From a virus (Duplodnaviria; Heunggongvirae; Uroviricota; Caudoviricetes), in the IMG/VR virus record IMGVR_UViG_2531839180_000004, positions 1 through 35,494 of that record: a DNA stretch of 35,494 bases. One strand, given 5' to 3'. Made by a program: the position numbers and the translations under genes. Positions 711 through 25,564 of this stretch are shown here, piece by piece. The notes below the pieces were generated by a model. That model had not been told where the DNA came from. It ran no database searches and saw only the letters and a list, made by a program, of their open reading frames with translations. The stretch's first letter is position 1, and every line of letters begins with the position of its first letter.

Positions 711-2147
711 ATGAGCACACATGAAATAGCTAGCACACAAGCACAAGGGCAACTCGTATCAACAGATTTCAATCGATTCGAGCAATTTTTGGAGTCGCTT
801 GGATTACCAAAAGAAAATGTTCTTGCTTCAACGATGGAGCGTCAGGTTGTCCAAACAAACTTTCCTCAGTTTGTGATGGCGTTACCAGAAGACGTTAAGC
901 GTGACTCTAGATATTTGTCCAAATTTGCAGCAGCAAGTGCTATTGGTTTGTTTGATGCTGCCTTGAATTATGTCTGGAACGAAGTTGTACTTAACTTACG
1001 AAGAAAGACAGTTATTTATGGTTTGGAACTTTTTTTTGATGCTGCCGTTGGTGGTAAACATAGAGATCTATTTAGTACTGAAAGTGACTTAAGTGGTATT
1101 AAAGATAAAGTTCTTCTTGATAATTGCGCTAAATTAGAATTGATCTCCGACTCAATTTATAAAAAACTCACCCATATTTTAATTATGCGCAATGATCTTG
1201 GTGCCAGTCATCCTAATGATGCGAAAATCAATGCTTATGAACTGATGGGGTGGTTGCAAACATGTGTTCAAGAAGTTATCAATGACACACCTTCAGAGGC
1301 TGCACTGCAAGTTAAGGCTTTTGTTGAGAATCTGCGAAATCAAACTGAAGTCATCAGTAGCTCTAGTTTGCAGCATATGAAAAATGGGCTCAAACAGCTA
1401 CACACAAGAAATTGTGATAATGTCCTTCAGACAATCTTCGGTATGTATATTGGTGCTGGTGCAAATAACATCCTTAAGAAAAATATATCTGAAATTGCTC
1501 CAACAGTTTGGGAATGTGCAGATAATAATATTAAATATAAACTAGGTGTTGCGCTTGATGGTTATCGAACCAACTTGCACAATGATAAATTTTTAGCAGG
1601 TAACGAGTTTTTCGAATTTTGCTCTGGTAATAAATTTAAAACCCTTGAGGCTAGGGTTATTCTGCTTGATGAATATCTGGATGATTTAAGTTCTGCTCAC
1701 AGCGGTTGGGATAATTTCTATAATGAAGTTCCTCATGCTAGGAAAATGTTAAGTTACATTTCCAATGAATCGGATATTCCTAATGAACGTAAAGAAAAAT
1801 TAATTCGTATAATTCTATCGTGTCGTATTGGTAATGGTGTTTCTTATAACACTGGTGTTTCTCCTTTAGGCAAACCCATATACGATTCAATATTGAATAT
1901 GCTGGGCGATGATAATATCGTTCAAGTTATCATTGCATTCTATAATCAAGAGATTTACCACTTATTATCTAACAAAAACTGTAGAAAACATGCTGTGCAA
2001 ATTCTAACGGATATAAGAACTAATGTTGTTAGTGATAAGCTCAAGCAAATCTTAGATTATCTGATTGTAAATGGTGATACTTTGGAAAAAACTATGAAAA
2101 CCACTGAATTTAAAGCTCTAGCATCAAGTCATATAAAATTTAGTTAA
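711..2147 (+). CDS. hypothetical 478-aa cargo protein, AT-rich, orphan; possible HEPN-like abortive-infection protein
   Basis: Long intact ORF with ATG at 711. Markedly AT-rich compared with the flanking phage genes. No Walker or other enzymatic motif seen except RNDLGASH (R-x6-H). Inserted between ogr and D, which are adjacent in P2. Confidence 0.8.
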   Translation: MSTHEIASTQAQGQLVSTDFNRFEQFLESLGLPKENVLASTMERQVVQTNFPQFVMALPEDVKRDSRYLSKFAAASAIGLFDAALNYVWNEVVLNLRRKTVIYGLELFFDAAVGGKHRDLFSTESDLSGIKDKVLLDNCAKLELISDSIYKKLTHILIMRNDLGASHPNDAKINAYELMGWLQTCVQEVINDTPSEAALQVKAFVENLRNQTEVISSSSLQHMKNGLKQLHTRNCDNVLQTIFGMYIGAGANNILKKNISEIAPTVWECADNNIKYKLGVALDGYRTNLHNDKFLAGNEFFEFCSGNKFKTLEARVILLDEYLDDLSSAHSGWDNFYNEVPHARKMLSYISNESDIPNERKEKLIRIILSCRIGNGVSYNTGVSPLGKPIYDSILNMLGDDNIVQVIIAFYNQEIYHLLSNKNCRKHAVQILTDIRTNVVSDKLKQILDYLIVNGDTLEKTMKTTEFKALASSHIKFS

Positions 2148-2330: not shown

Positions 2331-3440
2331 TCATTCTGTTTCTGCTATCCATTCCGGGATTTTTGCCTCAAGCTCAAGCTGCGTGGTAAAGCCGCTGTTA
2401 TCAATGGTGTGCTCAGCTTTTGCAATAATCCAGTCCTGATTATCAATCTCGCTTTTAAATCCTGTTACCGTGCCATGCATTTCGGGGTAGAGTTCTGCGC
2501 GTCCGCGTGCCAGTGTGATGGAGAATGATGCGGCTCCGCGTTGTAGCTGCTGCCACTTTGCCGCCGCTGCGCGTCTTGCTGCCTGCTCGTTCTGATAAGT
2601 CTTGCGTAACACAAACACATTGCCTTCCGCGCCTTCCATATAATCACCTTCACGGCTGCTGCTTTTCTCCTTTTTGGGTTTTGGCGGTTTACGGCGTTTC
2701 ACGCTGACTTTTTTCTTTTTCCCGTAATTAAGATCAAGCCAGTAGGCGCGTACCCCCGTATACGCCTCGCGGTCAGCAATGCGGAACTGATGGCGATCGC
2801 CGCTGCTGCGTGTAATGGCGAACGAGGGTAACGGCTGACCCTGTGCGTTCACGCCACCGCCGGGCATGATGAATAACAGATTGCCGCTTTTTACCGTGGC
2901 GATTGCGCCCAGCATTTCCGCCATGCGCGTAAGGAAGGACATGTCGCTTTCTTCGGTCTGGTCGGCGTGGTCGATTTCGATATCCATCAGCATTTCGCTG
3001 ATTTGCGGTTTCAGACCATACCGATGAGCGATGGCGGATACCACACGCTCAACGGTCACATCATGCCAGGACACCTCACGTTTAACGTTAAATTCATCCC
3101 GAAAATCTGCGCTTCTGGCTGAAACAGTCAGCCTGTCCGGCGGTCCTTCGTGAGCGATTTCATCAACAATGTAAGTGCCTTTTTCTGTCAGCGGTTCTCC
3201 TTTCCAGCCAATGAGAACCGTCAGGCGCGCGCCCCGTGGCGGTAGCTGCAACTGACCATCCGCATCATCCAGCGTGATGGTGAGCTGGTCCGCCTCAAAT
3301 CCCCGGTTGTCGGTCAGTGACAGGCTCATCAGGCGCTCTGCCACACCTGACAGCGTTTTACCCTCCGCGAGAATATCAAAATCCGGCATTTTCACGGGGT
3401 CTGTGCCCTGACTGAGCAATTGCATGGTGGTGTCGGTCAT
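2331..3440 (-). CDS. D: tail protein D (late control gene D family, baseplate hub/VgrG-like)
   Basis: 369 aa from the internal Met MTDTTMQLL, preceded by a GGGAGGGA Shine-Dalgarno. Size and sequence fit the Phage_GPD family; the ORF-track start at 3572 would leave only 25 bp to FI. Confidence 0.85.
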   Translation of the reverse strand: MTDTTMQLLSQGTDPVKMPDFDILAEGKTLSGVAERLMSLSLTDNRGFEADQLTITLDDADGQLQLPPRGARLTVLIGWKGEPLTEKGTYIVDEIAHEGPPDRLTVSARSADFRDEFNVKREVSWHDVTVERVVSAIAHRYGLKPQISEMLMDIEIDHADQTEESDMSFLTRMAEMLGAIATVKSGNLLFIMPGGGVNAQGQPLPSFAITRSSGDRHQFRIADREAYTGVRAYWLDLNYGKKKKVSVKRRKPPKPKKEKSSSREGDYMEGAEGNVFVLRKTYQNEQAARRAAAAKWQQLQRGAASFSITLARGRAELYPEMHGTVTGFKSEIDNQDWIIAKAEHTIDNSGFTTQLELEAKIPEWIAETE

Positions 3441-3496
3441 CTGCTCCCTCCCTGTGCGGCATGGTCGCATGTGCGTGCGGAGGGGGTTACTGCTTT

Positions 3497-3520
3497 TTGT
3501 TGTCGCCTGGTCGGGAGAAC
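3497..3520. promoter_or_regulatory. candidate late-promoter activator site (TTGTTGT-N12-AGAAC) in the D/FI divergent region
   Basis: Motif centred about 55-60 bp upstream of the expected FI transcript start. A near-identical motif occurs between O and P at 20405-20429. Confidence 0.3.
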
Positions 3521-3597
3521 GGCGCAGGGGTGAGATTACGCGCGTGGTGGGTGATGATTGTTGCCGAATCATTTAACGGATACAAGGGGCTGAAGCT

Positions 3598-4782
3598 ATG
3601 AGTGAAACTCGTTTTCATGGTGCCCGTGTTACGGAAAGTACCGACCTGGTAACAGCGATTAATGATGTTGATTCCAGTGTTATCGGTATCGTGGCAACGG
3701 CGGATGATGCGGATGCGGAGCTGTTCCCGCTGAACAAGCCCACACTGCTGACCCGCGTCAATGACGTGCTGGGAAAATGCGGAACAACGGGGACGCTTTA
3801 TCGTGCGCTTAAGGCCATCGCAGACCAGGTGAGCACAAAGGTGATCGTCGTTCGCGTGGCTGAACACAAAGAAGAAGACGGAAAAACGCAGGATCAACTG
3901 GTTATCGGTGGTTCTGAATCTGACGGCAGCTATACGGGGATGTATGCGCTGCTTGTTGCAGAGCAGGATGAAAGCATCGGATACCGTCCGCGTATTCTGG
4001 CCGCGCCGGAGCTGGACACGGAGGCGGTAACAAAATCCCTGTGCGTGATTGCGGGTAAACTGCGCGCGTTTGTCTATGCCTCATGTCACGGCTGTAACAC
4101 GATGGCTGAGGCGATTACCTACCGCCAGAAATTCAACGAACGTGAGGTGATGCTCTTATGGCCGGACTTCATCGCCTACAACCCGAAAAGTGGCAAAAAC
4201 GAAACGTTCCCCGCGCCTGCCTATGCGTGCGGCCTTCGTGCGTACATTGACCATGAGCAGGGCTGGCACAAATCGCTGTCCAACGTTCCGGTTAAAAATG
4301 TGCTGGGGATGTCCAGGCATGTGTTCTGGTCGTTGCAGGCCGAAGACAGTGATGCCAACAGCCTCAACAACAAAGAAATCACGACCATTATTCGTCGCAA
4401 CGGGTTCCGCTTCTGGGGCAACCGCACACCGGAAACGAACGCCTACATCTTTGAGGTGTATACCCGAACCGCACAGGTGCTGGCTGATTCAATTGCGGAA
4501 GCGCAGTTTGAAACCATCGACAGTCCACTGACGCCTGCGAACGTGAAAGATGTTATCAGTGCCATCAGGGCAAAACTGGATTCACTGGTTACTGCCGGGA
4601 AACTGATTGGGGCGTCGTGCTGGTATGACGTGGTGGATAACGGCACCACGAATTTACGTCAGGGGCGCGTGCGTATTCGCTACAAATATACGCCTGTTCC
4701 CCCGCTGGAAGACATGGAGCTTTACCAGTCGTTTACTGATGAATTCTTTGGTCCCGCATTTGCGGTGCTGGGAGGTGCCTGA
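3598..4782 (+). CDS. FI: tail sheath protein FI
   Basis: 394 aa; FPLNKP, RPRILA, WPDF, GWHK and RRNGFRFWGNRT blocks align with P2 FI. Confidence 0.95.
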   Translation: MSETRFHGARVTESTDLVTAINDVDSSVIGIVATADDADAELFPLNKPTLLTRVNDVLGKCGTTGTLYRALKAIADQVSTKVIVVRVAEHKEEDGKTQDQLVIGGSESDGSYTGMYALLVAEQDESIGYRPRILAAPELDTEAVTKSLCVIAGKLRAFVYASCHGCNTMAEAITYRQKFNEREVMLLWPDFIAYNPKSGKNETFPAPAYACGLRAYIDHEQGWHKSLSNVPVKNVLGMSRHVFWSLQAEDSDANSLNNKEITTIIRRNGFRFWGNRTPETNAYIFEVYTRTAQVLADSIAEAQFETIDSPLTPANVKDVISAIRAKLDSLVTAGKLIGASCWYDVVDNGTTNLRQGRVRIRYKYTPVPPLEDMELYQSFTDEFFGPAFAVLGGA

Positions 4783-5294
4783 TGGCTGTACCAAAACATC
4801 TTCGCTTTTTTACGCTGTTTGTGGATGGTGAAAACGAAGTGGGTAAGGTGACGTCCGTCACTCTGCCTAAGCTGACGCGCAAAACCGACAGCTACCGGGG
4901 TGGTGGCATGATGGGTGCGGTAAGTATTGATCTCGGTCTGGACGACTCCGCGCTTGATGCGAGCTTTGTCATGGGGGGCGCAGTTCGTGAGCTGTTCCTT
5001 AAGTATGGCGGCACGATTGACGGCACGCTGCTGCGTTTTGCGGGTGAATACTACACCGATGCAGAAAGCGACCTGTATGAAGTCGAAATGCGCGGACGTG
5101 TGACGGAAATTGATATGGGGGAAGCCAAACAGGGCGAAGCCACATCACACACTTACGCCATTAAAAACACCTACTACAAGCTGAGTGTTAACGATCGCCC
5201 GTTGTGGGAGATTGACCTGCTGAACTTCATTTACCGGAAGGACGGCAAGGACATTGTGCCCGATCGCATCCGTTCCGCGCTCGGGCTTGGCTGA
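4782..5294 (+). CDS. FII: tail tube protein FII
   Basis: 170 aa; VTLPKLTRKTDSYRGGGM closely matches P2 FII. The start overlaps the FI stop. Confidence 0.95.
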   Translation: MAVPKHLRFFTLFVDGENEVGKVTSVTLPKLTRKTDSYRGGGMMGAVSIDLGLDDSALDASFVMGGAVRELFLKYGGTIDGTLLRFAGEYYTDAESDLYEVEMRGRVTEIDMGEAKQGEATSHTYAIKNTYYKLSVNDRPLWEIDLLNFIYRKDGKDIVPDRIRSALGLG

Positions 5295-5348
5295 TAAGTA
5301 ATATGCAGGCGGCGCAGTGCGTCGCCTCTGACTGAAAGGAGTTTCCTG

Positions 5349-5714
5349 ATGAAAGAGACGAAAAACATCGATACCGAAAACACGGTAGTTACTGACACTG
5401 TGAAAGAAACCAGTGAGCGTGGCGTAAAACTTACCCAACCAATTGAGCGAGGCGGCGAAAAAATCACGTATGTGGAGATCACCGGGGCTATTGAGCAGGC
5501 TGGATCTCTGCGAGATTTGTCGCTGTCTGATGTGCTGAATCTGAAAGCGGAATCCATGTTTACGCTGCTGTCACGCGTGACATCACCGCGACTGGATGAA
5601 GTGACAATCAAAAAAATGGCATCCCGTGACTTTATTCAGTTATGTGCGGTTGCCGTAAATTTTTTGAGCGGTGCGGACTCTGGCGGGAAGAACGAACAGG
5701 CGACGGAAGCCTGA
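5349..5714 (+). CDS. E: tail assembly chaperone E
   Basis: 121 aa; C-terminal part aligns with P2 E and ends ...AVAVNFLS just after the slippery site. Confidence 0.85.
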   Translation: MKETKNIDTENTVVTDTVKETSERGVKLTQPIERGGEKITYVEITGAIEQAGSLRDLSLSDVLNLKAESMFTLLSRVTSPRLDEVTIKKMASRDFIQLCAVAVNFLSGADSGGKNEQATEA

Positions 5715-5878
5715 TCACGGTTGTGTGCTTTGAGCACATAGAAGACTTTGTGGCGGATATTGCCGCCATTTTTAACTGGTCGCCCGCCGAAATCTTCATG
5801 ATGACGCCCGGCGAAGTGGTTAGCTGGCGTGAGCGGGCGGCACTTCGCAGCGGGAATGCAGACAATGAAGACTCTTGA
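5349..5878 (+). CDS. E': E+E' tail chaperone fusion made by programmed -1 ribosomal frameshift (slip site near 5658-5667)
   Basis: AAATTTTTTG slippery run near the 3' end of E. The -1 frame continues as FFERCGLW...FNWSPAEIFMMTPGEVVSW, typical of E'. ORF-track frame 5642..5878 is -1 relative to E. Confidence 0.7.
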
Positions 5879-8672
5879 TATCCGGGTCGCTTTCAGCGCC
5901 GTTGACAGGCTGACCCGGCCTGCCGAAAACGCCCGCCGCCTGATGGGGCAGTTTGGTGACTCCATCCAGCGAACGCAGGGGGCGATCAAAAATCTCGAGC
6001 GTCAGGCGCGATCATTTGAGCGCGCCCGCGACGCTGTCAGTAAAGCGGATGCGGGTATCGTGAAAGCACGACGCCAGCTTAACGCCCTTAATCAGTTACA
6101 ACGCACGGGTACAGTGCTCAGCGAAAAACAACAAAAGCTGATGCAGCAGTTAAGCAACCGGCTTGAACGCCTGAATGAATCGCGCACACGGGAAATTCAG
6201 AAAATGCGGGAGCTTGGCGGAGAACTGAAACGCCACGGCATTTCCCTGACAGGCAGCGATAGCACCATCCAGCAGGCCATCAGACGCACCGAACAGTACA
6301 ACAACCAGCTTGAACGCGAACGGCAGGCGCTTGCGCGTGTAACACGTGCGCGTGAGCGGTATTCGCGCGCGCAGGAAACCGCGGGAAAACTGAAAACAGG
6401 TGGTGCGCTGGCAATTGGTGCGGCAGCGGCTGGCAGCTATGCTGCCGGGCGTTTTTTGCAGCCTGCGATCGGGTTCGGGAAAGAGATGTCCCGCGTTCAG
6501 GCACTGACGCGAATCGACCAGAACAGCCCGCAGTTTAAGGCGCTGCGTGAACAGGCGTTAAAACTTGGCTCTGAAACGCAGTTCACTGCAGGCGAGGCCG
6601 CCAGTGGGCAGGCATTTCTTGCAATGGCTGGCTTCACACCGCAGGCCATTCAGGCTGCGCTTCCCGGCGTGCTGAGCATGGCAACGGCTGGCGGTATGGA
6701 TCTCGGCGAGACGGCGGATATTGGCTCAAATATCCTGACGCAGTTCGGCCTTTCTGCTGACCAGATGGACCGGGTCGGTGACACACTCACCGCAGCGTTT
6801 ACTCGTACCAACACTGACCTTCGCGCACTGGGCGAAACCATGAAATATGCAGGTCCGGTGGCGGGTAAGCTGGGAATATCGCTGGAGCAGGCCGCAGCGA
6901 TGGCGGGCGTGCTGGCGAATATGGGTATCAGGGGGAGTGATGCTGGTACGGCAATGCGTGCCAGCCTGGCTCGTCTGGCATCACCGCCAAAGGCGGCAGC
7001 AGAGGCGCTGAAAGAGCTTGGCGTGTCTGTCTCGGATGCTGGGGGCAAAATGCGCCCGATGGAGGATGTGCTGGCTGACCTTTATAAAGCTACCCGCAAA
7101 TACGGGGAAGTTGACCGGGTATCGTTCTTTAAGGACATTGCCGGAGAAGAGGCTTTCACATCATTTATGGCCCTCGTTGATGCGGCAGGTGACGGCTCCT
7201 TACCCAAACTGAGAAAAGAACTTGAAGGCGCGCGCGGTGAGGCTGAACGCACGGCAAAGGTTATGGCCAACAACCTTGACGGCGATCTGAAATCACTCAG
7301 CAGTGCATGGGAAGGGTTGCGCATCCGCATTGCAGATCTGATTGACGGTCCGCTGCGTTCTGTCACGCAGTGGCTCACGCGTGTGGTATCAAAGGTGACG
7401 GCGCTGGCGCAGGCCCATCCCGCACTGACGCGCCAGCTACTGATTGCAGGCGGTGCACTGCTGGCAATGACTGCAACGGTTGGCTCGTTGTCGCTGGCTA
7501 TTGGTGTGCTTGCTGGCCCGCTGGCAAAACTGCGTCTTGGTTTTTCCCTCCTGACCGGATCAATGAATGCTGTCAGGGTTCTGCCAGCACTATGGGGAAT
7601 GGTGACGGGTTCCGTTTCTTTACTGGGAGGCGCTATCGGGGCGTTGTTCAGTCCGGTTGGTCTTATCGTGGCTGCGCTTGCCGGAGCTGCCGTTCTTATC
7701 TGGAAATACTGGGATCCCATCAGGGCATTTTTTGCCGGGGTGTTCAGCGGGATTATGGAAAGGCTGACCCCGTTGCGCGAAACCTTTGAACGGTTTGGTC
7801 CTGTTTTTGACGCAATCGGGAGTGGGATCAGCCAGGTGTTTAACTGGTTTAAATCGCTGCTGTCACCGATGGAGTCCAGCAAGGAAACTCTGGATAAATG
7901 TACCAGTGCTGGCGAGATATTCGGTAACGTTCTTGGCGGTGCGTTACAACTTGTTCTGACACCTGCAAAAATGTTGCTGGATACGCTGGCGTGGATACTT
8001 GAAAAGCTTGGTGTGCTTCCGGATGAAGCGGAAAGGGCGCGCAAGAAAATCGAAGACGCACAGCGTGCGGCCATTCTTCAGGACAAGGTTGCCTTGCTTC
8101 AGGGGGACCTGGCGAAAATCAATCCGCCGAAGCCTGTGGAAAATGGCAATGGCACCGGAGGTGATAACCCCAAAGACAATAAACCGCTCACAGATAGCAA
8201 TACCGGTACGCTGCGCAGACTCAGCAAAATTGCTGATAACACAGGTAAGCTGGTTGAGGAGACGAAAAAACGCATTGGCCCCGGCGATATTGTCTTTAAA
8301 AACCTGCCCCGAGCACTTGCTGTTCGTGGGGAGTGGCAGGAGCGGAAGATTGCGCAGGTCAGTAAGCCTGCCCCCGCAATTAATATCACACCCGTGGTCC
8401 CGGCTCCGCTGCCTCCGGCGCTGGTCCCTGTTGTTGCGGCCAGCTCCCGCCCGGTGGCGGAGGCTATACGATCGCCAGTGGCATCAGTTCCTGTAACTTC
8501 CCGTAACCGCGAGCCTGTTGCCTCCGGATTTGGTGGTGAAATTCATGTTCATCTGCATAACGTTGTTACGCAGAATCCCCGCGAACTGGCGAAACTGGTC
8601 GGTGAAATGGTCAGGGCAGAAATGGAACGGCGCGCCCGTGCCGGGCGTGGCAGTTTTTACGATAAAGATTGA
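5865..8672 (+). CDS. T: tail tape measure protein T
   Basis: Long Ala/Gly-rich protein with coiled-coil N-terminus and hydrophobic central segments, in the T position after E'. Start at MKTLDIRV chosen for its weak GGGAA Shine-Dalgarno (ORF track starts at 5829). Confidence 0.9.
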   Translation: MKTLDIRVAFSAVDRLTRPAENARRLMGQFGDSIQRTQGAIKNLERQARSFERARDAVSKADAGIVKARRQLNALNQLQRTGTVLSEKQQKLMQQLSNRLERLNESRTREIQKMRELGGELKRHGISLTGSDSTIQQAIRRTEQYNNQLERERQALARVTRARERYSRAQETAGKLKTGGALAIGAAAAGSYAAGRFLQPAIGFGKEMSRVQALTRIDQNSPQFKALREQALKLGSETQFTAGEAASGQAFLAMAGFTPQAIQAALPGVLSMATAGGMDLGETADIGSNILTQFGLSADQMDRVGDTLTAAFTRTNTDLRALGETMKYAGPVAGKLGISLEQAAAMAGVLANMGIRGSDAGTAMRASLARLASPPKAAAEALKELGVSVSDAGGKMRPMEDVLADLYKATRKYGEVDRVSFFKDIAGEEAFTSFMALVDAAGDGSLPKLRKELEGARGEAERTAKVMANNLDGDLKSLSSAWEGLRIRIADLIDGPLRSVTQWLTRVVSKVTALAQAHPALTRQLLIAGGALLAMTATVGSLSLAIGVLAGPLAKLRLGFSLLTGSMNAVRVLPALWGMVTGSVSLLGGAIGALFSPVGLIVAALAGAAVLIWKYWDPIRAFFAGVFSGIMERLTPLRETFERFGPVFDAIGSGISQVFNWFKSLLSPMESSKETLDKCTSAGEIFGNVLGGALQLVLTPAKMLLDTLAWILEKLGVLPDEAERARKKIEDAQRAAILQDKVALLQGDLAKINPPKPVENGNGTGGDNPKDNKPLTDSNTGTLRRLSKIADNTGKLVEETKKRIGPGDIVFKNLPRALAVRGEWQERKIAQVSKPAPAINITPVVPAPLPPALVPVVAASSRPVAEAIRSPVASVPVTSRNREPVASGFGGEIHVHLHNVVTQNPRELAKLVGEMVRAEMERRARAGRGSFYDKD

Positions 8673-8678
8673 GGAGTC

Positions 8679-9173
8679 ATGGCCATGATGATGATCTACG
8701 GCATGTTTGTTTTTGAGCTGCGCACGCTGCCGCATCAGCAGTTACAGCAAAACAAAAGCTGGCGGCATGTGAAAAATGAACGCGTTAACCGTTCAGCAAG
8801 CTGGCAGTATATCGGTGCAGGTGATGATCGCATCGTTCTTTCTGGTGTGCTTTATCCTGAAATTACAGGTGGCGAAGTGTCGCTGTCGCTGCTGACCACG
8901 CAGGCGTATACAGGACGACCCTGGCCTTTGATTGATGGCGTCGGGCAGATTTACGGTATGTATGTCCTGACCGGAACGAATACGACCCGTTCCGAGTTTG
9001 ATCGCTACGGTAAGGCGAAAAAGATAGAATTTTCACTGACCCTTGAACGCTGTGATGAGGATTTGCGGGAGCGCCTGCAATCCTCATCGTTCAGCGATAT
9101 GCTGTCCGGCTTCAAAGATAAGGTGACATCATCCCTTAACAGCGCGGCCAGTTCAGTAAAAGGGTTGTTCTGA
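8679..9173 (+). CDS. U: tail protein U
   Basis: MMMIYGMFVFELRTLPHQQLQQNKSWRH and PEITGGE...YTGRPWPLIDG align with P2 U. Confidence 0.9.
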   Translation: MAMMMIYGMFVFELRTLPHQQLQQNKSWRHVKNERVNRSASWQYIGAGDDRIVLSGVLYPEITGGEVSLSLLTTQAYTGRPWPLIDGVGQIYGMYVLTGTNTTRSEFDRYGKAKKIEFSLTLERCDEDLRERLQSSSFSDMLSGFKDKVTSSLNSAASSVKGLF

Positions 9174-9180
9174 TTTAACA

Positions 9181-9220
9181 CAAAAACCGCTAATGGTCAG
9201 ATTAGCGGTTTTCTTTTTCC
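9181..9220. terminator. bidirectional intrinsic terminator between U and the invertase remnant
   Basis: AACCGCTAAT-GGTCAG-ATTAGCGGTT perfect stem flanked by an A-run upstream and TTTCTTTTT downstream. Confidence 0.55.
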
Positions 9221-9396
9221 TTAGTCTTCTCAATTGTTTCTTCAGTCTGTATATCGCCTACAGGGTGATAACGATAAATCGTCGATATACTGATACCGTA
9301 AATTATTGCCAGTTGTTTTCTGTCATGACCGTTTTTAATAAGCCTTGCTATTTGAATGTTCACCCAAGGAATGCCTCCCTTAAGAAAGGGGGGCAA
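9202..9396 (-). pseudogene. remnant of a Gin/Hin/Cin/Pin-family DNA invertase (C-terminal HTH only)
   Basis: 64-aa ORF ...LIKNGHDRKQLAIIYGISISTIYRYHP resembles the C-terminal DNA-binding helix-turn-helix of serine invertases; the N-terminal catalytic domain is absent. Confidence 0.65.
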
Positions 9397-9409
9397 CCTT
9401 ACCTACAAA

Positions 9410-12007
9410 TCAGTATTTATAATAACGTCCAGGCAGCACAGGAGAGTTAACATTCCAGAACCCCTGCGGATCGCATGCCAGTATCATCCAGGCTGTATTA
9501 CAGGAGGACGGCCACGGTGGCATATCATCATTATCGGGGTAGTCACACGAATCAATATAACCGTAGCGTGTGCGCAGTGGTGCCAGCCTCGCCAGAATAT
9601 CCATCGCGGTGGTATCATCTCCCAGTCTGCGGGCCAGCAATGCCACGCCTGCACTGCCCTCCACCCAGACTCCACGCTGTTTATTCGGGTAGCCATATTC
9701 CGGATGATAAGGCGTGTACCCTGTCGCATCGTGCGTGGCGTACCAGAGTCTGCCCAGGTAAGTAAAACACCGCCGGGCTTTTTCCATATCTATATTGGCC
9801 ACAAACAGCCCTCCCCAGCTCGCGCAGTCCAGCGGTGAGGCCTTGTCCACCCCGGTAGTCCGCATCCCGGCATAAAATCGTCCTTCGTCCTCCACCCACA
9901 GTTTTTCCATAATGGCATCCGCCAGGGCTTTCGCTTTTTCAGCATAGCCGGTGAAGCCCAACCGTCCCATCAGATCAAACAAAAACCACAGGTCGAACTG
10001 ATGTTCTGACGTGCACCAGTCTGCGTCAAAATCCGGATAAAACACACCATTCAGATACTGTCCGCTACCGGATGTATACAAACCAGAGCGAACATCACTG
10101 CCATCTGTGACCCTGAACATTTCAATCCATTCTGCGCACTGCATCAGTTTATCCCGGGCAACAACGGCCATTTCACCGTCCGGATATTTCAGCAGATAAT
10201 ACGCCAGCGCATACGCCACCCACGCTGCGTTTCCCGTCCGGTAATACTGCGATGATGTTTGTGCTGACATACGGTTCACAAAAAAAGGCACGCTTCCCTC
10301 ACTGCCTCCGCTGCCCACAATCGCACACAACCCGCGAACAAAACGCTCAACCTGACTGTGCCCCTGCGCCATCAGGGCAATGGCCGACACAGCCTGGTCG
10401 TAAGTGTACGTACGGTCTTTCATCACCCTTACCGTTTCGTCTCCGGCATCCGATGGCACCCGGTAAGAGCGGATACACAGCGGGTCTTCCCAGACAGTTA
10501 CCAGACCGTTATTTGATGTACGATACAGTTTAAAAGACTTGGCCCCCGGCCAGCTTCTGGCGAAACTGAACGTGCCGTCACTCTCTAATACTACAGAGGA
10601 AAACTGATATTCCAGAGTTGTGCTGGCACACAGCGCAATGGTGTAGCTCTGCGGATCACCGATACTGCACTGACCTGTGACCGGACCGGTATAGTCCGTT
10701 GTCAGCTCTTCATTTACCGTCAGCGTAACGGATTTGTTGTACACATCAGGGGCATTCAGCGATAAAAGTTCCGCTGTGCAGGTTTCCGCCAGTGTGTAAA
10801 AATTTTCCACCCGGCTGTTGCGTTCGCAGGTTGTGATCTGCGAGTGAAATTTATCAATTATTTCCGTTAATCGAAGGTAATCTAGAACATCCTCAGCACT
10901 GGTCTTACTAATAATTTCACGTCCAACACTTGTTAATGCAGTTAATGCGGCACGATTTGCCCCTGTAAAATAAGGGAGTTTATCTGCTGATGTAGCAAGC
11001 TCCGCCAGCGCCGTCAGGGTGGCATCCTTCGGTTGCTTACCCGCAAGCGCGTCAATCACGGTGGTTGCAAAATTAGGGTCATTGCCCAGCGCCGCAGCCA
11101 GTTCGTTCAGCGTGTTCAGTGCATCAGGTGACGAATCTACAAGTGCGGCAATCGCGGCCATAACGAAAGCTGTGCTTGCGATCTGGGCATTATTAGTCCC
11201 CTGTGGCGCTGTTGGTGTTGTTGGCGTTCCGGTCAGTGCCGGGCTGTTTAATGGTGCTTTCTTGTTCGTTTCATCCATTACCACCTTGACAGCTTTTGGT
11301 GTCGCTGCCAGCGTTTCAGACGTGCTGTTCGTGGCGCTACTGAGCTGAACAATCCCTTTTTGTGTAGTGGTGGCGTTCTGGGCGGTATATTTCCCGTTAG
11401 CCAGGTCATATGCAGCCTTAACCGCTTTCGGTGTTGCGGCCAGTGTTTCTGATTCACTGTTAATTGCACTGCTTAACTGAGTAAAACCTTTTACGGTCAG
11501 CGAGGCGTCCGGGTGACGTCGTGACTGTTCGTGCTCTGATATTTTATCATCCACATATTTGCGGGTTGCCAGAACCACAGACGGGTCGATTTTCAGCGTG
11601 ATGGCTTCAGTGTTCGTGACAACCAGAATCATTCGGATAGTCTGGGTGCGTCCACTGCCTTCCTGCAACTGCGGTTTGTACGTTTCCGGGCAGTTTGCCA
11701 CCGCAATGAGTACACCTTCATCATCATAAAGACCAATCTCACGGATCCAGAATCCTCCCTCGTTTTCAGGGATGATTTGCTCCGCAATAATCTGGCTCTG
11801 ATTGTTAGGGTCAACACTCAGAAGATTCAGCGGTGCAATGCGTTTCTGGTTAATCAGTTTTGTTTGTGCAGGGTCTGGTGTTGGTAACACACCATTTGCA
11901 TCACCAACGGCCATTTGCGTCAGATTCAGCTTACTGCCGAGCATCGTCGCGTTAGCCAGTCGTGCCGCGCCCTGATTAGTCAGAATGGCGTAGTATTTCA
12001 CTGTCAT
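9410..12007 (-). CDS. H: tail fibre protein H with P2-like N-terminus, two fibre repeats and a divergent C-terminal domain of about 435 aa
   Basis: N-terminus MTVKYYAILTNQGAARLANA is P2 H-like, followed by two SETLAATPKAVK repeats. The C-terminal half is aromatic/Asp-rich and cysteine-containing, unlike P2 H. No G (fibre assembly) gene follows. Confidence 0.9.
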   Translation of the reverse strand: MTVKYYAILTNQGAARLANATMLGSKLNLTQMAVGDANGVLPTPDPAQTKLINQKRIAPLNLLSVDPNNQSQIIAEQIIPENEGGFWIREIGLYDDEGVLIAVANCPETYKPQLQEGSGRTQTIRMILVVTNTEAITLKIDPSVVLATRKYVDDKISEHEQSRRHPDASLTVKGFTQLSSAINSESETLAATPKAVKAAYDLANGKYTAQNATTTQKGIVQLSSATNSTSETLAATPKAVKVVMDETNKKAPLNSPALTGTPTTPTAPQGTNNAQIASTAFVMAAIAALVDSSPDALNTLNELAAALGNDPNFATTVIDALAGKQPKDATLTALAELATSADKLPYFTGANRAALTALTSVGREIISKTSAEDVLDYLRLTEIIDKFHSQITTCERNSRVENFYTLAETCTAELLSLNAPDVYNKSVTLTVNEELTTDYTGPVTGQCSIGDPQSYTIALCASTTLEYQFSSVVLESDGTFSFARSWPGAKSFKLYRTSNNGLVTVWEDPLCIRSYRVPSDAGDETVRVMKDRTYTYDQAVSAIALMAQGHSQVERFVRGLCAIVGSGGSEGSVPFFVNRMSAQTSSQYYRTGNAAWVAYALAYYLLKYPDGEMAVVARDKLMQCAEWIEMFRVTDGSDVRSGLYTSGSGQYLNGVFYPDFDADWCTSEHQFDLWFLFDLMGRLGFTGYAEKAKALADAIMEKLWVEDEGRFYAGMRTTGVDKASPLDCASWGGLFVANIDMEKARRCFTYLGRLWYATHDATGYTPYHPEYGYPNKQRGVWVEGSAGVALLARRLGDDTTAMDILARLAPLRTRYGYIDSCDYPDNDDMPPWPSSCNTAWMILACDPQGFWNVNSPVLPGRYYKY

Positions 12008-20490: not shown

Positions 20491-22242
20491 ATGATTCAGG
20501 ACGCTTTTGTGCGCCAGCGTGCGCGGCAACTTTACTGGCAGGGTTATCCGCCCGCAGAAATATCACGTCTGATGGGAATAAACCCGAACACGATTTATGC
20601 GTGGAAAAAACGCGACCAGTGGGATGAAACGCCACCCGTGCAGCGTGTCACGCAGTCCATCGATGCGCGCCTCATCCAGCTCACTGAAAAACAGAATAAA
20701 ACAGGTGGTGACTTCAAGGAAATAGACCTGCTGACCCGGCAGCTTAAAAAACTGCATGATGGCCAGCCGGATGCGACGGCCACAGGAAAGAAAGGCCGGG
20801 CGAAAAAACTCAAAAATCATTTCACGCCGGAACAGATTGCCGCACTGCGGGAAAAAATCATCAGCAGGCTGGAGTGGCATCAGCGGGGCTGGTTTGACTC
20901 CCTGACCCTTTGCAGGGAAGCCGGGATACGTAACAGGATGATCCTGAAATCCCGACAGATTGGGGCGACCTGGTATTTTGCACAGGAAGCTCTGCTGATG
21001 GCGCTGCGTGACGATGTGGCGCAACCTTACCAGCGTAACCAGATTTTTTTGTCTGCGTCGCGTCGTCAGGCGTTCCAGTTTAAAAGCATTATTCAGAAGG
21101 CCGCGGCTGAAGTTGATGTGGAGCTGAAAGGGGGCGATAAAATCATCCTCTCCAACGGCGCAGAGCTGCATTTTCTCGGCACTTCTGCTGCGTCGGCACA
21201 GTCCTATACGGGCAATTTTTATTTTGATGAATTTTTCTGGGTCAGTCGCTTTGCTGAACTGCGCAAGGTAGCTGGCGCTATGGCAACCCTCAGCGGACTG
21301 CGGCGCACCTACTTCTCCACGCCATCCACCGAAACGCACGAGGCATACGCCTACTGGAACGGCGACCGCTGGAACGAGAAAAAGGCCTCGCATAAACGCC
21401 AGCGTTTTTCTGTGGACTGGAAAACGCTGCATAACGGGCTTATCTGCCCTGACCGGACGTGGCGGCAAATTGTCACGCTGGAAGATGTGGTTAATCACGG
21501 CTGGAAACACACCGATATTGACGAAATCCGTGATGAAAACACCGAAGACGAGTTCCTCAATCTCTATATGTGTGAGTTTGTTCGCGAAGGGGAATCGGCA
21601 TTTAACCTGAATATCCTGATTGGCTGCGGTGTTGACGGATACGACGACTGGAAAGACTGGAAACCTTTTGCTCCCCGCCCGATGGGGAATCGTCCGGTAT
21701 GGATTGGGTATGACGCAAACGGCAGCAGTGGCAACGGCGACAGCGGCGCTGTGTCCGTGGTGGTTCCTCCGGCTGTTCCTGGTGGCCGTTTTCGAACGGT
21801 GGAGACGCGACGCGTTCAGGGGCTGGAGTTTGAAGAACAGGCCAGAGTCATTGAAGAGTTCACGTGTCGCTACAACGTGGAACACATCGGCATTGATGTG
21901 ACGGGCGGGAACGGGGAGGCTGTTTATCAGATAGTGAAGCGGTTTTTCCCTGCTGCTATTCCGTACACCTTCACGCTGTCATCCAAACGGTCGCTGGTAC
22001 TGAAAATGCTGCAAATAATGCGTGCCGGACGCTGGGAATACGATCGCGCCGAACGCGAGCTGGTCGCGGCCTTTAACGCCGTGCGTAAGGTGAAAACACC
22101 GGGCGGCTTTATCACTTACGAAACGGACCGCGCGAGGGGGATCAGCCACGGCGACCTTGCGTGGGCAACCATGCTTGCTGTCATTAACGAACCAATTGGC
22201 GGCGAAGGAGAAAACGAGCGTTTCACGGTTATGGAGTTCTGA
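20491..22242 (+). CDS. P: terminase ATPase (large) subunit P
   Basis: 583 aa with a P2 P-like N-terminus and nuclease region. Confidence 0.95.
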   Translation: MIQDAFVRQRARQLYWQGYPPAEISRLMGINPNTIYAWKKRDQWDETPPVQRVTQSIDARLIQLTEKQNKTGGDFKEIDLLTRQLKKLHDGQPDATATGKKGRAKKLKNHFTPEQIAALREKIISRLEWHQRGWFDSLTLCREAGIRNRMILKSRQIGATWYFAQEALLMALRDDVAQPYQRNQIFLSASRRQAFQFKSIIQKAAAEVDVELKGGDKIILSNGAELHFLGTSAASAQSYTGNFYFDEFFWVSRFAELRKVAGAMATLSGLRRTYFSTPSTETHEAYAYWNGDRWNEKKASHKRQRFSVDWKTLHNGLICPDRTWRQIVTLEDVVNHGWKHTDIDEIRDENTEDEFLNLYMCEFVREGESAFNLNILIGCGVDGYDDWKDWKPFAPRPMGNRPVWIGYDANGSSGNGDSGAVSVVVPPAVPGGRFRTVETRRVQGLEFEEQARVIEEFTCRYNVEHIGIDVTGGNGEAVYQIVKRFFPAAIPYTFTLSSKRSLVLKMLQIMRAGRWEYDRAERELVAAFNAVRKVKTPGGFITYETDRARGISHGDLAWATMLAVINEPIGGEGENERFTVMEF

Positions 22243-23288
22243 TGAGCAGAAAAAATAAAAAAGTGCGCATGAGTTCACGCATTGATCTCGCTGATGCGCT
22301 CAGGAAAGAATCATCGCTCAGTGCATTCACATTTGATGGTCCTTATCGCCTGACCGGGCATGACCTGCTGGACAATATGTACTGTGCTGATAACGGGCGG
22401 TGGTATGAAACCCCGGTAGACTGGTACGGTCTGGCAAGAGCTGCCCGGCAAACGTCCTGGCATCAGTCTGCGCTTTACTTTAAGCGCAATGTATTGCTCG
22501 GCTGCTATATTCCGCACCCGCTGCTTTCCCGGCAGGATTTCTCGGCGCTGGCGCTGGACTGGTTTGTGTTCGGTAACGCATTCCTTGAGCTTCGAAGCAA
22601 TATGCTCGGCGAACCGCTTAAATTACGGCACGCCCTGGCGAAATACATGCGACGCGGAAGCGATCTTGAATCATGGTGGTATGTGCAGGATGGCAAGGAT
22701 GCGTTTCAGTTTCGCCCTGGTAAAGTGTGCCACCTGATGAATCCTGACATTAACCAGGAAATCTACGGCATGCCGGAATATCTTGGCGCATTACTCTCGG
22801 CCAGCCTGTCTCATTCGGCGGACATGTTCAGAAAACTGTATTACGACAACGGATCCCACGCCGGGTGCATCATCTACATCGGTGCAGCGCAGGTAAACCG
22901 CGAAAGCATGGACTCCCTGAAAGAAACGCTACAGGGTGCACGTGGTGGTGGTGCGTTTAAAAACGTGCTCATTCATGCCCCCAACGGTGGCAAAGAGGGG
23001 GTGCAAATTTTGCCGTTCCAGCAGATCACCGCAAAGGATGAGTTCATGAATGTTAAGGCGGCATCCCGTGATGATGTGCTGGCTGCGCACCGCGTTCCGC
23101 CGCAACTGATGGGGGCGATGCCGGGCGAAAAAAGTGCGTTTGGTGATGTGGAGAAGGCCGCGCGGGTTTACGCAATTAACGAGCTGATGCCCGTCATGGA
23201 GGCCATGAAGCACATCAATGACTGGCTTGGCGAAGAGGTGATCCGCTTTAACCCTTACGCACTGTTAGATACCCAGCCCACATCCTGA
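22242..23288 (+). CDS. Q: portal (capsid vertex) protein Q
   Basis: 348 aa, P2 Q-like; start overlaps the P stop (TGATG). Confidence 0.95.
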   Translation: MSRKNKKVRMSSRIDLADALRKESSLSAFTFDGPYRLTGHDLLDNMYCADNGRWYETPVDWYGLARAARQTSWHQSALYFKRNVLLGCYIPHPLLSRQDFSALALDWFVFGNAFLELRSNMLGEPLKLRHALAKYMRRGSDLESWWYVQDGKDAFQFRPGKVCHLMNPDINQEIYGMPEYLGALLSASLSHSADMFRKLYYDNGSHAGCIIYIGAAQVNRESMDSLKETLQGARGGGAFKNVLIHAPNGGKEGVQILPFQQITAKDEFMNVKAASRDDVLAAHRVPPQLMGAMPGEKSAFGDVEKAARVYAINELMPVMEAMKHINDWLGEEVIRFNPYALLDTQPTS

Positions 23289-25025: not shown

Positions 25026-25027
25026 TT

Positions 25028-25564
25028 ATGGCAGTTAAGAAATTTGCTATTATTCTTGTTGAGGGAGATACGGAAAAAGCATTGTTTCAGGATTTCAAAA
25101 CATTGCTAGGCTATCCTATTAAGAAAATAGTAATTGCTAATTTATGGAATGTTAATATAAATAAATACATGCCAGCATTAACCGAAAATAGCGAAATCAT
25201 AGTGGTTTTTGATACGGATAGGATTGAGAATCTTGATAGATTTAAGAATAATCTCAATCTATTAAAGGCGAAAAAACACACAATCCACCTATTTCAACAA
25301 ACAAGCAATTTTGAGGATGAGCTTGCCAATGCTTGTGGTGTAAGTAATAGAAAGTTGTATTCTTGTTTTTGCCCAAAGATCATTTCTGCAGATAACTTCA
25401 AGAATGAATTCATTGCGCTGCGCAACAGGATGATGAAATTAGATGGACTTGGACTAAATAAAACGTTGCTTTGGAGTAGAGGGATTATCCCCCAATTGAG
25501 AGATTATAATTTTCATGTTTCCTCTCATGATGATTATTTTTATAAAAATAATAGTCCTCATTAA
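25028..25564 (+). CDS. Toprim-like small protein (RloB/DUF4276-like) coupled to the ATPase
   Basis: N-terminal FAIILVEGDTE and VVFDTD acidic motifs match the Toprim/OLD-type pattern. ATG 2 bp after the ATPase stop with a GAGGA Shine-Dalgarno. AT-rich. Confidence 0.7.
   Translation: MAVKKFAIILVEGDTEKALFQDFKTLLGYPIKKIVIANLWNVNINKYMPALTENSEIIVVFDTDRIENLDRFKNNLNLLKAKKHTIHLFQQTSNFEDELANACGVSNRKLYSCFCPKIISADNFKNEFIALRNRMMKLDGLGLNKTLLWSRGIIPQLRDYNFHVSSHDDYFYKNNSPH

What the first reader, a model, noticed from the sequence alone, without database searches (positions are those of the whole stretch)
9202..9396. Remnant of a serine DNA invertase between H and U
Seen in sequence: a 64-aa ORF whose product (...KNGHDRKQLAIIYGISISTIYRY...) resembles only the C-terminal HTH of Gin/Hin/Cin/Pin invertases; the catalytic N-terminal domain is missing. 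Established: such invertases sit next to invertible tail-fibre segments in Mu, P1, e14 and many P2-like prophages. Inference: an ancestral invertible fibre shufflon was deleted or replaced, and the breakpoint falls inside the invertase gene. It coincides with one junction of the FI-U inversion.
Basis: partly seen in the sequence, partly recalled or inferred. Interest (0 to 1): 0.45.

Follow-up and report, generated by a model that had tools for sequence, protein, structure and literature searches.

The report
Dead stub of a tail-fibre invertase
The small ORF is the leftover last quarter of a DNA-invertase gene in a P88-like E. coli prophage, stranded when the switchable tail-fibre cassette it served was replaced by a fixed tail-spike module; this is ordinary and already flagged as a pseudogene in public annotation.

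Summary
Confirmed and ordinary. The window is a P88-like (Xuanwuvirus, P2 family) E. coli prophage.

**The stub.**
- Window 9202-9354 (minus strand) is the 3' end of a Hin/Gin-type serine invertase gene: codons 150-199 plus the stop.
- It is 93-97% identical in DNA to intact 195-199-aa invertase genes at the same place in P88, phage 503458 and about 620 E. coli genomes.
- Homology stops sharply at 9354. No catalytic domain exists anywhere in the window.
- The other 14 codons of the 64-aa ORF (9355-9396) are junction DNA. They contain a poly-C tract of variable length, so the TTG start is not conserved.

**What replaced the rest.**
- The deleted part is the first 149 invertase codons, both gix sites, and the invertible fibre tips with their chaperone genes.
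- In its place sits a chaperone-less spike domain with a predicted (alpha/alpha)6 glycosidase-like fold. It is fused just after a degenerate ex-gix site in H (10862-10887).

**Corrections and extras.**
- The opposite orientation of the FI-U block is genus-wide, not an event in this genome.
- RefSeq already annotates 9202-9354 as a pseudogene.
- The same 2.2-kb spike-plus-stub cassette also occurs in P1-like plasmid prophages, with homology ending inside the stub.
- An unrelated second deletion type breaks the invertase gene at the same nucleotide. This is unexplained.

The parts
9202..9354 (-). 3' stub of a serine DNA-invertase gene: codons 150-199 of a 199-aa P88-type invertase plus the stop codon. 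It encodes only the HTH_7 domain (helices 1-3) and the C-terminal tail.
   Evidence: DNA homology to intact invertase genes ends at 9354. tblastn matches residues 150-199 only. Pfam HTH_7. Hin and Gin structures. RefSeq annotates exactly these coordinates as a pseudogene, 'missing N-terminus'.
9355..9409 (-). Junction DNA of unknown origin between the H stop codon and the stub. It supplies the first 14 codons of the 64-aa ORF, a TTG (9396-9394), an alternative GTG (9363-9361), and an 8-bp hairpin (9374-9393) whose 3' arm reads as an SD-like AAGGGAGG.
   Evidence: No similarity to invertase genes. Found only in the same junction type: 8 E. coli records plus P1-like loci. No significant similarity to the upstream flank of the other junction type.
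9388..9393 (.). Homopolymer G6 (C6 on the coding strand) whose length varies among near-identical relatives.
   Evidence: C5, C6, C7, C8 and longer in L005, window, L004, L018 and L019. This shifts the TTG start out of frame.
9183..9212 (.). Bidirectional intrinsic terminator shared by U (+) and the H/invertase transcript (-). It overlaps the last codons and the stop of the stub.
   Evidence: 12-bp stem followed by a T-run. Conserved in P88, 503458 and L009.
8679..9173 (+). Tail gene U, convergent with the stub.
   Evidence: Pfam Phage_P2_GpU, 131.5 bits.
9410..12007 (-). Tail fibre gene H (865 aa): a P2-type collar and fibre repeats fused to a foreign spike domain. No chaperone gene follows it.
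   Evidence: Pfam Phage_tail_fib and Phage_fiber_2 in the N-terminal 253 aa. ORF map. PHROG 7032 matches over the full length.
9413..10861 (-). Spike module (483 aa): a beta-sandwich followed by an (alpha/alpha)6-barrel glycosidase-like domain. It occupies the place of the invertible fibre tips.
   Evidence: Window 9450-10836 is 91-95% identical to tail fibre/spike genes of unrelated E. coli prophages. The domain is fused to at least 5 different N-terminal adaptors. AlphaFold2 model: pLDDT 78.6, pTM 0.83. Foldseek best matches are GH78 rhamnosidases and other six-hairpin enzymes, at TM about 0.5.
10862..10887 (.). Degenerate ex-gix site inside H (TTCCGTTAATCGAAGGTAATCTAGAA), the positional homologue of the H-internal crossover site of P88. 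The spike homology begins within about 12-25 nt 3' of it.
   Evidence: 6 mismatches to the degenerate gix consensus, against 0-2 in intact relatives. Position offset and alignment. By my reading of the sites printed, the constant-side half matches L008's site at 11/12 and the variable-side half at 7/12.
9258..11495 (-). 2.24-kb cassette (most of H, ex-gix, spike, junction DNA and the first 32 codons of the stub) shared at 96.5% identity with P1-like plasmid prophages.
   Evidence: blastn: window 11495..9258 = L018 866..3106. Context of L018/L019: R, S::spike, stub, lydC/lydB/darA. The stub part is 0/97 different from the window, 9/97 from P88-type alleles and 19/97 from a P1-like allele.

Best explanation
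Window 9202-9354 is a non-functional 3' remnant of the Hin/Gin-type serine invertase that P88-like (Xuanwuvirus) prophages carry between tail gene U and the tail-fibre gene H.

In intact relatives this enzyme flips a roughly 3-kb segment between two 26-bp gix sites, so that H ends in one of two alternative receptor-binding tips, each with its own chaperone. In this lineage one stretch of DNA was lost: the first 149 invertase codons (catalytic domain, dimer helix and minor-groove arm), its promoter and enhancer region, both gix sites, both fibre tips and both chaperone genes. A single chaperone-less spike domain took its place. That domain was fused to the constant part of H just after the former crossover site, and it brought about 55 bp of flanking DNA with it.

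Consequences. The stub cannot recombine DNA, and there is nothing left for it to invert. The fibre is fixed.

Why the stub persists (inferred). Its last codons overlap the bidirectional terminator shared with U, and nothing selects for its removal. It is transcribed, if at all, only by read-through from H.

A secondary role, shown at sequence level. The stub's conserved helix-turn-helix coding sequence served as the right-hand homology arm when the spike-plus-stub cassette was exchanged between P88-like and P1-like phages.

Shown: identity, breakpoint, what is missing, what replaced it, and the shared cassette. Inferred: the order of events, the direction of transfer and the lack of protein function.
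For: - Identity of the stub: Pfam HTH_7 at 36.8 bits; Hin DNA-binding domain E 6e-10 and Gin residues 150-183; tblastn matches residues 150-199 only.
- Orthology and breakpoint: window 3001-9354 is 97.4% identical to P88, ending at codon 150 of its invertase gene. The same holds for phage 503458.
- Population context: about 620 E. coli genomes carry the full-length gene next to U, and only 8 records (6 strains) carry this junction.
- What intact relatives have: two gix sites, TTATCTAAAACCTCGGTTTACAGGAA, flanking fibre tips and chaperone genes.
- What the window lacks: no gix-like site within 3 mismatches of P88's site; only a 6-mismatch relic at the homologous H position.
- The replacement: a spike module 91-95% identical to spike genes of unrelated prophages.
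- No sign of a maintained gene: no sigma-70-like promoter on the minus strand upstream of the stub; terminator at 9183-9212.
- Hints of decay: the poly-C length varies, and the only substitution within the truncated clade is Leu>Gln at 9311, in the helix-turn-helix.
- Existing annotation: RefSeq calls it a pseudogene, 'incomplete; missing N-terminus'.
- Cassette shared with P1-like plasmids, ending inside the stub.
Against: - Translation is possible. An SD-like AAGGGAGG lies 10 nt upstream of an in-frame GTG at 9363, and gene callers predict a 53-aa product in several assemblies. A small helix-turn-helix peptide is therefore not excluded.
- The left parent of the junction DNA (9355-9449) was not found, so the recombination event itself cannot be reconstructed.
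- A second, unrelated junction type (L009) breaks the invertase gene at the same nucleotide. Simple random deletion does not predict this.
- Divergence within the truncated clade is too small to test for relaxed selection: 1 non-synonymous and 0 synonymous changes.
Confidence: 0.9

Rival explanations
1. The stub is a retained, functional helix-turn-helix micro-protein of 53 aa, read from the GTG at 9363. It might be a domesticated DNA-binding regulator, or a decoy that interferes with invertases of co-resident prophages. On this view its preservation reflects selection.
For: - SD-like AAGGGAGG lies 10 nt upstream of an in-frame GTG.
- The ORF is co-directional with H and immediately downstream of it, so it would be transcribed with the late operon.
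- Two unrelated junction types keep the helix-turn-helix from the same codon, Q150, which is where helix 1 starts.
- The stub also travelled into P1-like plasmids.
Against: - Homology starts after the GGRRPK/GRPR arm. From my own knowledge of the Hin literature, not checked here, that arm is needed for sequence-specific binding.
- The SD-like motif is one arm of a hairpin.
- There is no promoter of its own.
- A Leu>Gln change in the helix-turn-helix is carried by six assemblies.
- In P1-like copies the C-terminal tail is replaced.
- Other stubs are cut at other positions, or nothing is left at all.
- No PADLOC match.
Confidence: 0.07
2. Codon 150 is a preferred breakpoint in this invertase gene. 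On this view the stub is the recurrent product of a directed process, such as a recombinase quasi-site, a nuclease cut, or processing of the palindrome formed by the two chaperone genes, rather than of a one-off random deletion.
For: - Window-type and L009-type junctions have unrelated upstream sequences (local alignment p about 0.13) but start invertase homology at the same nucleotide, CAAATAGCAAGG.
- Both types recur in metagenome contigs.
- Among 76 informative contigs, no other truncation retaining codon 156 onward was seen.
Against: - Only two junction classes share the position. Others end near R133, near R161, at query positions 262 and 212, or at the terminator.
- By eye, the 26 bp around the break show no resemblance to gix/hix/cix half-sites, and the scan did not pick the position up in P88.
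- My rough estimate of a chance coincidence is about 1-3%, from a handful of classes over about 450-600 possible positions. That is small but not negligible.
Confidence: 0.15
3. The similarity is a chance ORF, or an unrelated helix-turn-helix protein that only resembles invertase C-termini.
For: Helix-turn-helix motifs are short, and several HTH families give weak hits.
Against: - 93-97% DNA identity to the 3' ends of intact invertase genes in the same genomic position, running on through the terminator and U.
- tblastn E 2e-24.
Confidence: 0.01

Closest known systems
DNA invertase of Escherichia phage P88 (YP_009113086.1) and phage 503458 (YP_009949316.1), genus Xuanwuvirus
   Same: Same locus, between U and H, convergent with U. 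The same terminator overlaps the stop codon. Codons 150-199 are 86% identical in protein and 93-97% in DNA.
   Different: Those genes are complete (195-199 aa, Resolvase plus HTH_7) and are accompanied by two gix sites and an invertible fibre-tip/chaperone segment. The window keeps only the last quarter of the gene and none of the rest.
Hin (Salmonella), Gin (Mu), Cin (P1) and Pin (e14) serine invertases
   Same: The stub aligns with the C-terminal DNA-binding domain: 1HCR chain positions 13-48 (the DNA-binding-domain peptide) and Gin residues 150-183.
   Different: No catalytic serine domain, no helix E, no minor-groove arm, no crossover sites and no enhancer region. It is a relic of a family member, not a working one.
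Other truncated invertase stubs next to 'frozen' tail fibres in E. coli P2-family prophages (L009/L010, L026, L011; strain 746 classical P2-like prophage L007)
   Same: Helix-turn-helix-only remnants beside a fixed fibre gene, annotated by PGAP as pseudogenes. L009 breaks at the identical nucleotide.
   Different: In those prophages one fibre tip and its chaperone survive, and the deletion removed the silent copy. Here both tips and both chaperones are gone and a foreign spike domain was installed.
P1-like plasmid prophages carrying S::spike followed by a 44-aa stub (L018, L019)
   Same: The same spike, the same junction DNA and the same first 32 stub codons: 96.5% identity over 2241 bp.
   Different: The backbone is P1-like (R, lydC, lydB, darA). 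The stub's tail switches to the P1-lineage C-terminus after ...YRYHPV.

Membership tests
Hin/Gin/Cin/Pin-type serine DNA invertases (Pfam Resolvase PF00239 + HTH_7 PF02796) | N-terminal catalytic domain with the serine nucleophile (PF00239) | tested here: not met
   Pfam finds only HTH families in the ORF. tblastn with a full-length invertase finds residues 150-199 only, anywhere in the window. A stop codon at 9403-9405 and the end of H lie directly upstream.
Hin/Gin/Cin/Pin-type serine DNA invertases (Pfam Resolvase PF00239 + HTH_7 PF02796) | C-terminal resolvase-type helix-turn-helix domain | tested here: met
   HTH_7 at 36.8 bits against a cut-off of 23.8. Hin DNA-binding domain E 6e-10; Gin E 1e-4.
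Hin/Gin/Cin/Pin-type serine DNA invertases (Pfam Resolvase PF00239 + HTH_7 PF02796) | Minor-groove arm preceding the HTH (GRPR in Hin, GGRRPK in the P88 type) | tested here: not met
   Homology starts at Q150, after ...GGRRPKLTKEQHE.
Hin/Gin/Cin/Pin-type serine DNA invertases (Pfam Resolvase PF00239 + HTH_7 PF02796) | Two 26-bp crossover sites in inverted orientation flanking an invertible segment | tested here: not met
   No match within 3 mismatches of P88's gix site. The degenerate scan gives only chance-level hits: best 5-6 mismatches, and shuffled sequence reaches 4-5. P88 and 503458 score 0-1 mismatches at two sites each.
Hin/Gin/Cin/Pin-type serine DNA invertases (Pfam Resolvase PF00239 + HTH_7 PF02796) | Fis-dependent enhancer in the 5' part of the gene | not testable with these tools
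   That the enhancer lies in the 5' coding region of hin, gin and cin is from my own knowledge; the P7 record annotates 'cin: enhancer'. That region is simply absent here. No enhancer model was run.
Hin/Gin/Cin/Pin-type serine DNA invertases (Pfam Resolvase PF00239 + HTH_7 PF02796) | Descent from a family member (orthologous position and DNA-level homology) | tested here: met
   93-97% DNA identity to the 3' ends of intact invertase genes at the same locus, continuous with U and T.
Xuanwuvirus (P88-like) genome organisation | D on one strand, FI-FII-E-T-U on the other, then invertase and H-I-J-W-V convergent with U | tested here: met
   Same order and orientation in P88, 503458, L009, L011 and L012. 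A classical P2-like prophage (L007) has all of these genes co-directional.
Free-standing functional HTH proteins | Conserved start, intact ORF and purifying selection among relatives | tested here: inconclusive
   The TTG start is lost through poly-C variation, while the GTG start is kept. One non-synonymous and zero synonymous changes among 12 copies, which is too few to test.

The most novel reading that the evidence does not exclude
The stub is not inert debris. It may be a recurrent, position-specific product: codon 150 would be a preferred breakpoint in this invertase gene. It may also serve as a portable right-hand homology arm that lets chaperone-free spike cassettes move between P2-family and P1-family phages. 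A still bolder version is that the helix-turn-helix-only peptide is expressed and selected.
Probability: 0.15. Interest if true: 0.4.

Novelty: already known. Interest (0 to 1): 0.17.

Why it matters
On its own it matters little. It is a correctly spotted pseudogene that NCBI's pipeline already flags.

Its value is as a marker. It shows that this prophage gave up programmed tail-fibre switching in favour of a single spike with a predicted glycosidase-like fold. That predicts a fixed host range, probably dependent on a surface polysaccharide.

It also gives a clean example of tail-fibre module exchange between P2-like and P1-like phages, with one crossover resolved inside the conserved helix-turn-helix coding sequence.

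The recurrence of the same breakpoint in an unrelated deletion is a small open question about how invertible fibre cassettes are lost.

Tried and rejected
An exact-ish search with P88's site found 0 matches at up to 3 mismatches. A degenerate 26-mer scan gave 9 hits at 5-6 mismatches, against a mean of 3.9 (maximum 7) in shuffled sequence, where the best hit had 4-5 mismatches. The hit in D (3291-3316) also occurs in P88 and is at chance level. The hit at 9400-9425 is AT-rich and at chance level. Only 10862-10887 is meaningful, because of its homologous position.
- **Origin of the junction DNA 9355-9449.** blastn in 'distant' mode against E. coli genomes, blastn-short against all fetched loci and an IMG/VR exact scan found only copies of the same junction.
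- **Common ancestry of the window-type and L009-type junctions.** The 60 nt upstream of the break show no significant similarity (p about 0.13).
- **Reading 9355-9409 as the reverse complement of a chaperone-gene 3' end, as in L009.** Checked by eye and by translation; not convincing.
- **Quasi-gix site or Chi at the break.** Inspected by eye; no resemblance.
- **Contigs ending at E149 (P0006).** I first took these as a sign of a mosaic boundary. A more likely cause, not tested, is an assembler fork at the first polymorphic site, the third position of codon 154.
- **GTDB representative genomes.** Two pattern scans returned nothing.
- **Selection test within the truncated clade.** No power, with only one substitution.
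- **Sequence identification of the spike domain.** PDB and NCBIfam sequence searches gave nothing useful. Only the fold comparison was informative.
- **Literature search for 'invertase remnant'.** The results were swamped by sucrose invertase papers.

Full report
**1. The observation**

The minus strand carries a 64-aa ORF at 9202..9396. It starts with TTG and contains ...KNGHDRKQLAIIYGISISTIYRY.... It lies 13 bases downstream of the stop codon of the 865-aa tail-fibre gene H (9410..12007, minus strand). It is convergent with tail gene U (8679..9173, plus strand; Pfam Phage_P2_GpU).

The resemblance to invertases is well above chance:
- Pfam HTH_7, the resolvase helix-turn-helix, scores 36.8 bits against a curated cut-off of 23.8.
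- Among all solved structures the best match is the Hin DNA-binding domain (1HCR), E 6e-10. It aligns ORF residues 15-50 with chain positions 13-48. Gin (3UJ3, 4M6F) matches at its residues 150-183.
- A tblastn of a complete 199-aa invertase against the whole window finds residues 150-199 at 9354..9205 (86% identity, E 2e-24). Nothing credible matches residues 1-149.

**2. What the window is**

megablast places the region in the P88 group of P2-family phages (genus Xuanwuvirus). Matches include P88, P884B11, phages 503458, 520873 and 500465-2, and the Citrobacter phage phiSM.

In P88 the gene order is:
- D (minus strand)
- FI-FII-E-E'-T-U (plus strand)
- a 195-aa DNA invertase (minus strand)
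- an alternative fibre tip and its assembly protein (plus strand)
- a second assembly protein and H (minus strand)
- I, J and the rest

The window has the same order and orientation except between U and H. The opposite orientation of the FI-U block is therefore a property of the genus. It also occurs in 503458, L009, L011 and L012. A classical P2-like prophage, in E. coli strain 746, has everything co-directional.

**3. The breakpoint**

Window 3001-9354 aligns with P88 at 97.4% identity. The alignment stops at 9354, which is P88 locus position 6450, codon 150 of its invertase gene.

Multiple alignments with P88 and 503458 show identity from CAAATAGCAAGG (Gln150-Ile-Ala-Arg) through the stop codon and into the terminator. 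There is no similarity upstream.

The stub's tail (...PVGDIQTEETIEKTKEKENR) is the native invertase C-terminus; 503458 ends ...PVGDIQTEETTGQTQENENR.

The remnant proper is therefore 9202-9354. The remaining 14 codons of the ORF (9355-9396) are junction DNA. Within it, the run of six C on the coding strand (9388-9393) is C5, C7, C8 or longer in otherwise near-identical relatives. That puts the TTG start out of frame in those copies. An in-frame GTG at 9363 survives, and some gene callers report a 53-aa product from it.

RefSeq/PGAP annotates exactly 9202-9354 in strains STEC388, E275a and ECL27977 as a pseudogene: 'helix-turn-helix domain-containing protein; incomplete; missing N-terminus'.

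**4. What was lost and what replaced it**

P88 and 503458 each carry two 26-bp sites of gix type. One (TTATCTAAAACCTCGGTTTACAGGAA) lies just upstream of the invertase gene. Its inverted partner lies inside H. They bracket about 3 kb holding two fibre tips and two chaperone genes.

The window has no such site within three mismatches. A degenerate scan gives only chance-level hits.

One of those hits matters because of its position. Window 10862-10887 (TTCCGTTAATCGAAGGTAATCTAGAA, 6 mismatches) is exactly where P88's H-internal site would fall. It encodes VLDYLRLTE where P88 encodes VIEYLGLQE.

I compared it by eye with the intact site of a closer H lineage, L008, as printed. The half on the constant side of H matches at 11 of 12 positions. 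The half on the variable side matches at 7 of 12.

Directly after it, homology begins to tail fibre/spike genes of unrelated E. coli prophages (window 9450-10836, 91-95% identity).

About this 483-aa module:
- It occurs fused to at least five different N-terminal adaptors in Escherichia, Salmonella and Citrobacter. These are the P2 collar, P1-type fibre repeats, PF18668, PF08400 and others.
- An AlphaFold2 model (pLDDT 78.6, pTM 0.83) shows a beta-sandwich followed by an alpha-helical barrel.
- Foldseek matches it best to GH78 rhamnosidases and other six-hairpin enzymes, with TM only about 0.5.
- No chaperone gene follows H.

**5. How common it is**

- About 620 of 5426 complete E. coli genomes have the full-length invertase next to U.
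- The junction seen here occurs in 8 records from 6 strains.
- It also occurs in several draft assemblies, in one metagenome contig out of 78 that carry this helix-turn-helix region, and in one IMG/VR contig.

Other truncations of the same gene exist:
- L011 is cut near R133.
- L026 is cut near R161, beside a partly deleted chaperone gene.
- Other records end at query positions 262, 212 or at the terminator.
- A stub of a different invertase lineage sits in the classical P2-like prophage of strain 746.

Losing the switch and leaving a helix-turn-helix stub is thus a recurrent, ordinary outcome.

**6. Function**

The stub lacks several things:
- the catalytic domain
- the dimer helix
- the arm preceding the helix-turn-helix (from my own knowledge of the Hin literature, not checked here, this arm is required for sequence-specific binding)
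- any target site in the window

No sigma-70-like promoter lies upstream of it on the minus strand. The strong bidirectional terminator at 9183-9212 overlaps its last codons.

The SD-like AAGGGAGG, 10 nt upstream of the GTG, is one arm of an 8-bp hairpin.

Among twelve copies of this junction type, the only substitution in the stub is 9311 T>A (Leu>Gln, in the helix-turn-helix), present in six assemblies. No synonymous change was seen. This fits decay but has no statistical power.

My reading is a pseudogene, with confidence about 0.9. It probably persists because its end is part of the U/H terminator and because nothing selects against it.

**7. Two things beyond the finding**

*The cassette is shared with P1-like phages.*
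- P1-like plasmid prophages (L018, L019) carry R, an S::spike fusion of 911 aa, the same junction DNA and a 44-aa stub, followed by lydC, lydB and darA.
- Window 11495..9258 matches L018 at 96.5% identity over 2241 bp.
- The match ends inside the stub, after ...YRYHPV. The nucleotides just before that point are identical in all six aligned invertase sequences (column conservation).
- Beyond that point, L018 continues with the P1-lineage C-terminus seen in phage vB_EcoM-813R1.
- The 97 shared stub nucleotides differ from the window at 0 positions, from P88-type alleles at 9, and from the P1-like allele at 19.
- This suggests the junction arose in a P88-like phage and was carried into P1-like elements by homologous recombination, with the stub as one arm. 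The direction is inferred from a single P1-like allele.

*A second junction breaks at the same nucleotide.*
- A different junction type (L009/L010) has H, one tip, one chaperone, a terminator, 41 nt of the opposite chaperone gene, and then the stub.
- It starts invertase homology at the very same nucleotide as the window, although the upstream sequences are unrelated.
- By eye, the sequence around the break resembles no gix/hix/cix half-site.
- I estimate a chance coincidence at roughly 1-3% and leave it unexplained.

**8. Verdict**

The link to an 'FI-U inversion' does not hold as an event in this genome. The feature is a known kind of relic and is already annotated as a pseudogene, so interest is low.

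Background on P88 as a P2-like phage is in PMC5285337 and PMC6456863. PMC5285337, by its title and abstract, addresses receptor recognition and host range in P88-type phages. PMC9881135 treats programmed inversions that alter genes, with tail-fibre proteins among the enriched target families.

Noticed in passing
window 9354/9355; L009 6060/6061: Two unrelated deletion junctions break the invertase gene at the same nucleotide, where homology starts at CAAATAGCAAGG (codon Q150). One is the spike type seen here; the other is a 'frozen fibre plus chaperone' type in L009/L010. Their upstream flanks show no significant similarity. Both types recur in metagenome contigs.
   Followed up: partly
window 9258-11495; L018 866-3106; L019: The spike-plus-stub cassette is shared at 96.5% identity with P1-like plasmid prophages (context: R, S::spike, stub, lydC, lydB, darA). 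Homology ends inside the stub, and the stub there is of P88 lineage. This is an exchange between P2-family and P1-family phages, using the invertase 3' end as a homology arm.
   Followed up: yes
window 9413-10861 (minus strand): The receptor-binding part of H is not a fibre tip with a chaperone. It is a 483-aa module predicted to be a beta-sandwich plus an (alpha/alpha)6 barrel, closest to GH78 rhamnosidases and six-hairpin enzymes at TM about 0.5. In Enterobacteria the same module is fused to at least five different N-terminal adaptors.
   Followed up: partly
window 23826-25025 and 25022-25564 (plus strand): A two-gene pair: an AAA_15 ATPase (399 aa; PADLOC AbiLi E 1e-27, weaker AriA) and a small OLD-like TOPRIM protein (180 aa; AbiLii/GajA-like). 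This is probably an AbiL-like anti-phage defence cargo downstream of the 348-aa ORF 22242-23288 (not identified here). The same pair occurs in L011.
   Followed up: partly
window 25992-26384 and 26403-26951 (minus strand): parM (actin-like segregation protein) is split into two ORFs: StbA_N plus the start of the C domain, then the rest of the C domain. A relative (L011) has one 319-aa gene, so this is probably a frameshift or nonsense pseudogene.
   Followed up: partly
window 711-2147 (plus strand): A 478-aa ORF between ogr (332-652) and D (2331-3572) has no Pfam or PADLOC match. It may be cargo near the prophage end.
   Followed up: no
window 9388-9393: A homopolymer (C6 on the coding strand) just downstream of H varies from C5 to about C9 among near-identical genomes. 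This could be true slippage or homopolymer sequencing error.
   Followed up: partly
L007 3702-3947 (E. coli strain 746, classical P2-like prophage): An independent stub of a different (Gin/Pin-like) invertase lineage, plus a fragment of a chaperone gene, sits between tfaE and the sheath gene. This shows the same kind of decay in the P2 Z/fun position.
   Followed up: partly
window 30893-31723 (minus strand): A Band_7/SPFH-domain protein (275 aa) is encoded in the early region next to an Ash-family protein. Its role is unknown.
   Followed up: no
L021-L025 (contig ends): Many draft assemblies break their contigs 3-5 nt upstream of codon 150 of this invertase gene. The likely cause, not tested, is an assembler fork at the first polymorphic site (codon 154) between two co-resident prophage copies, rather than anything biological.
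   Followed up: partly
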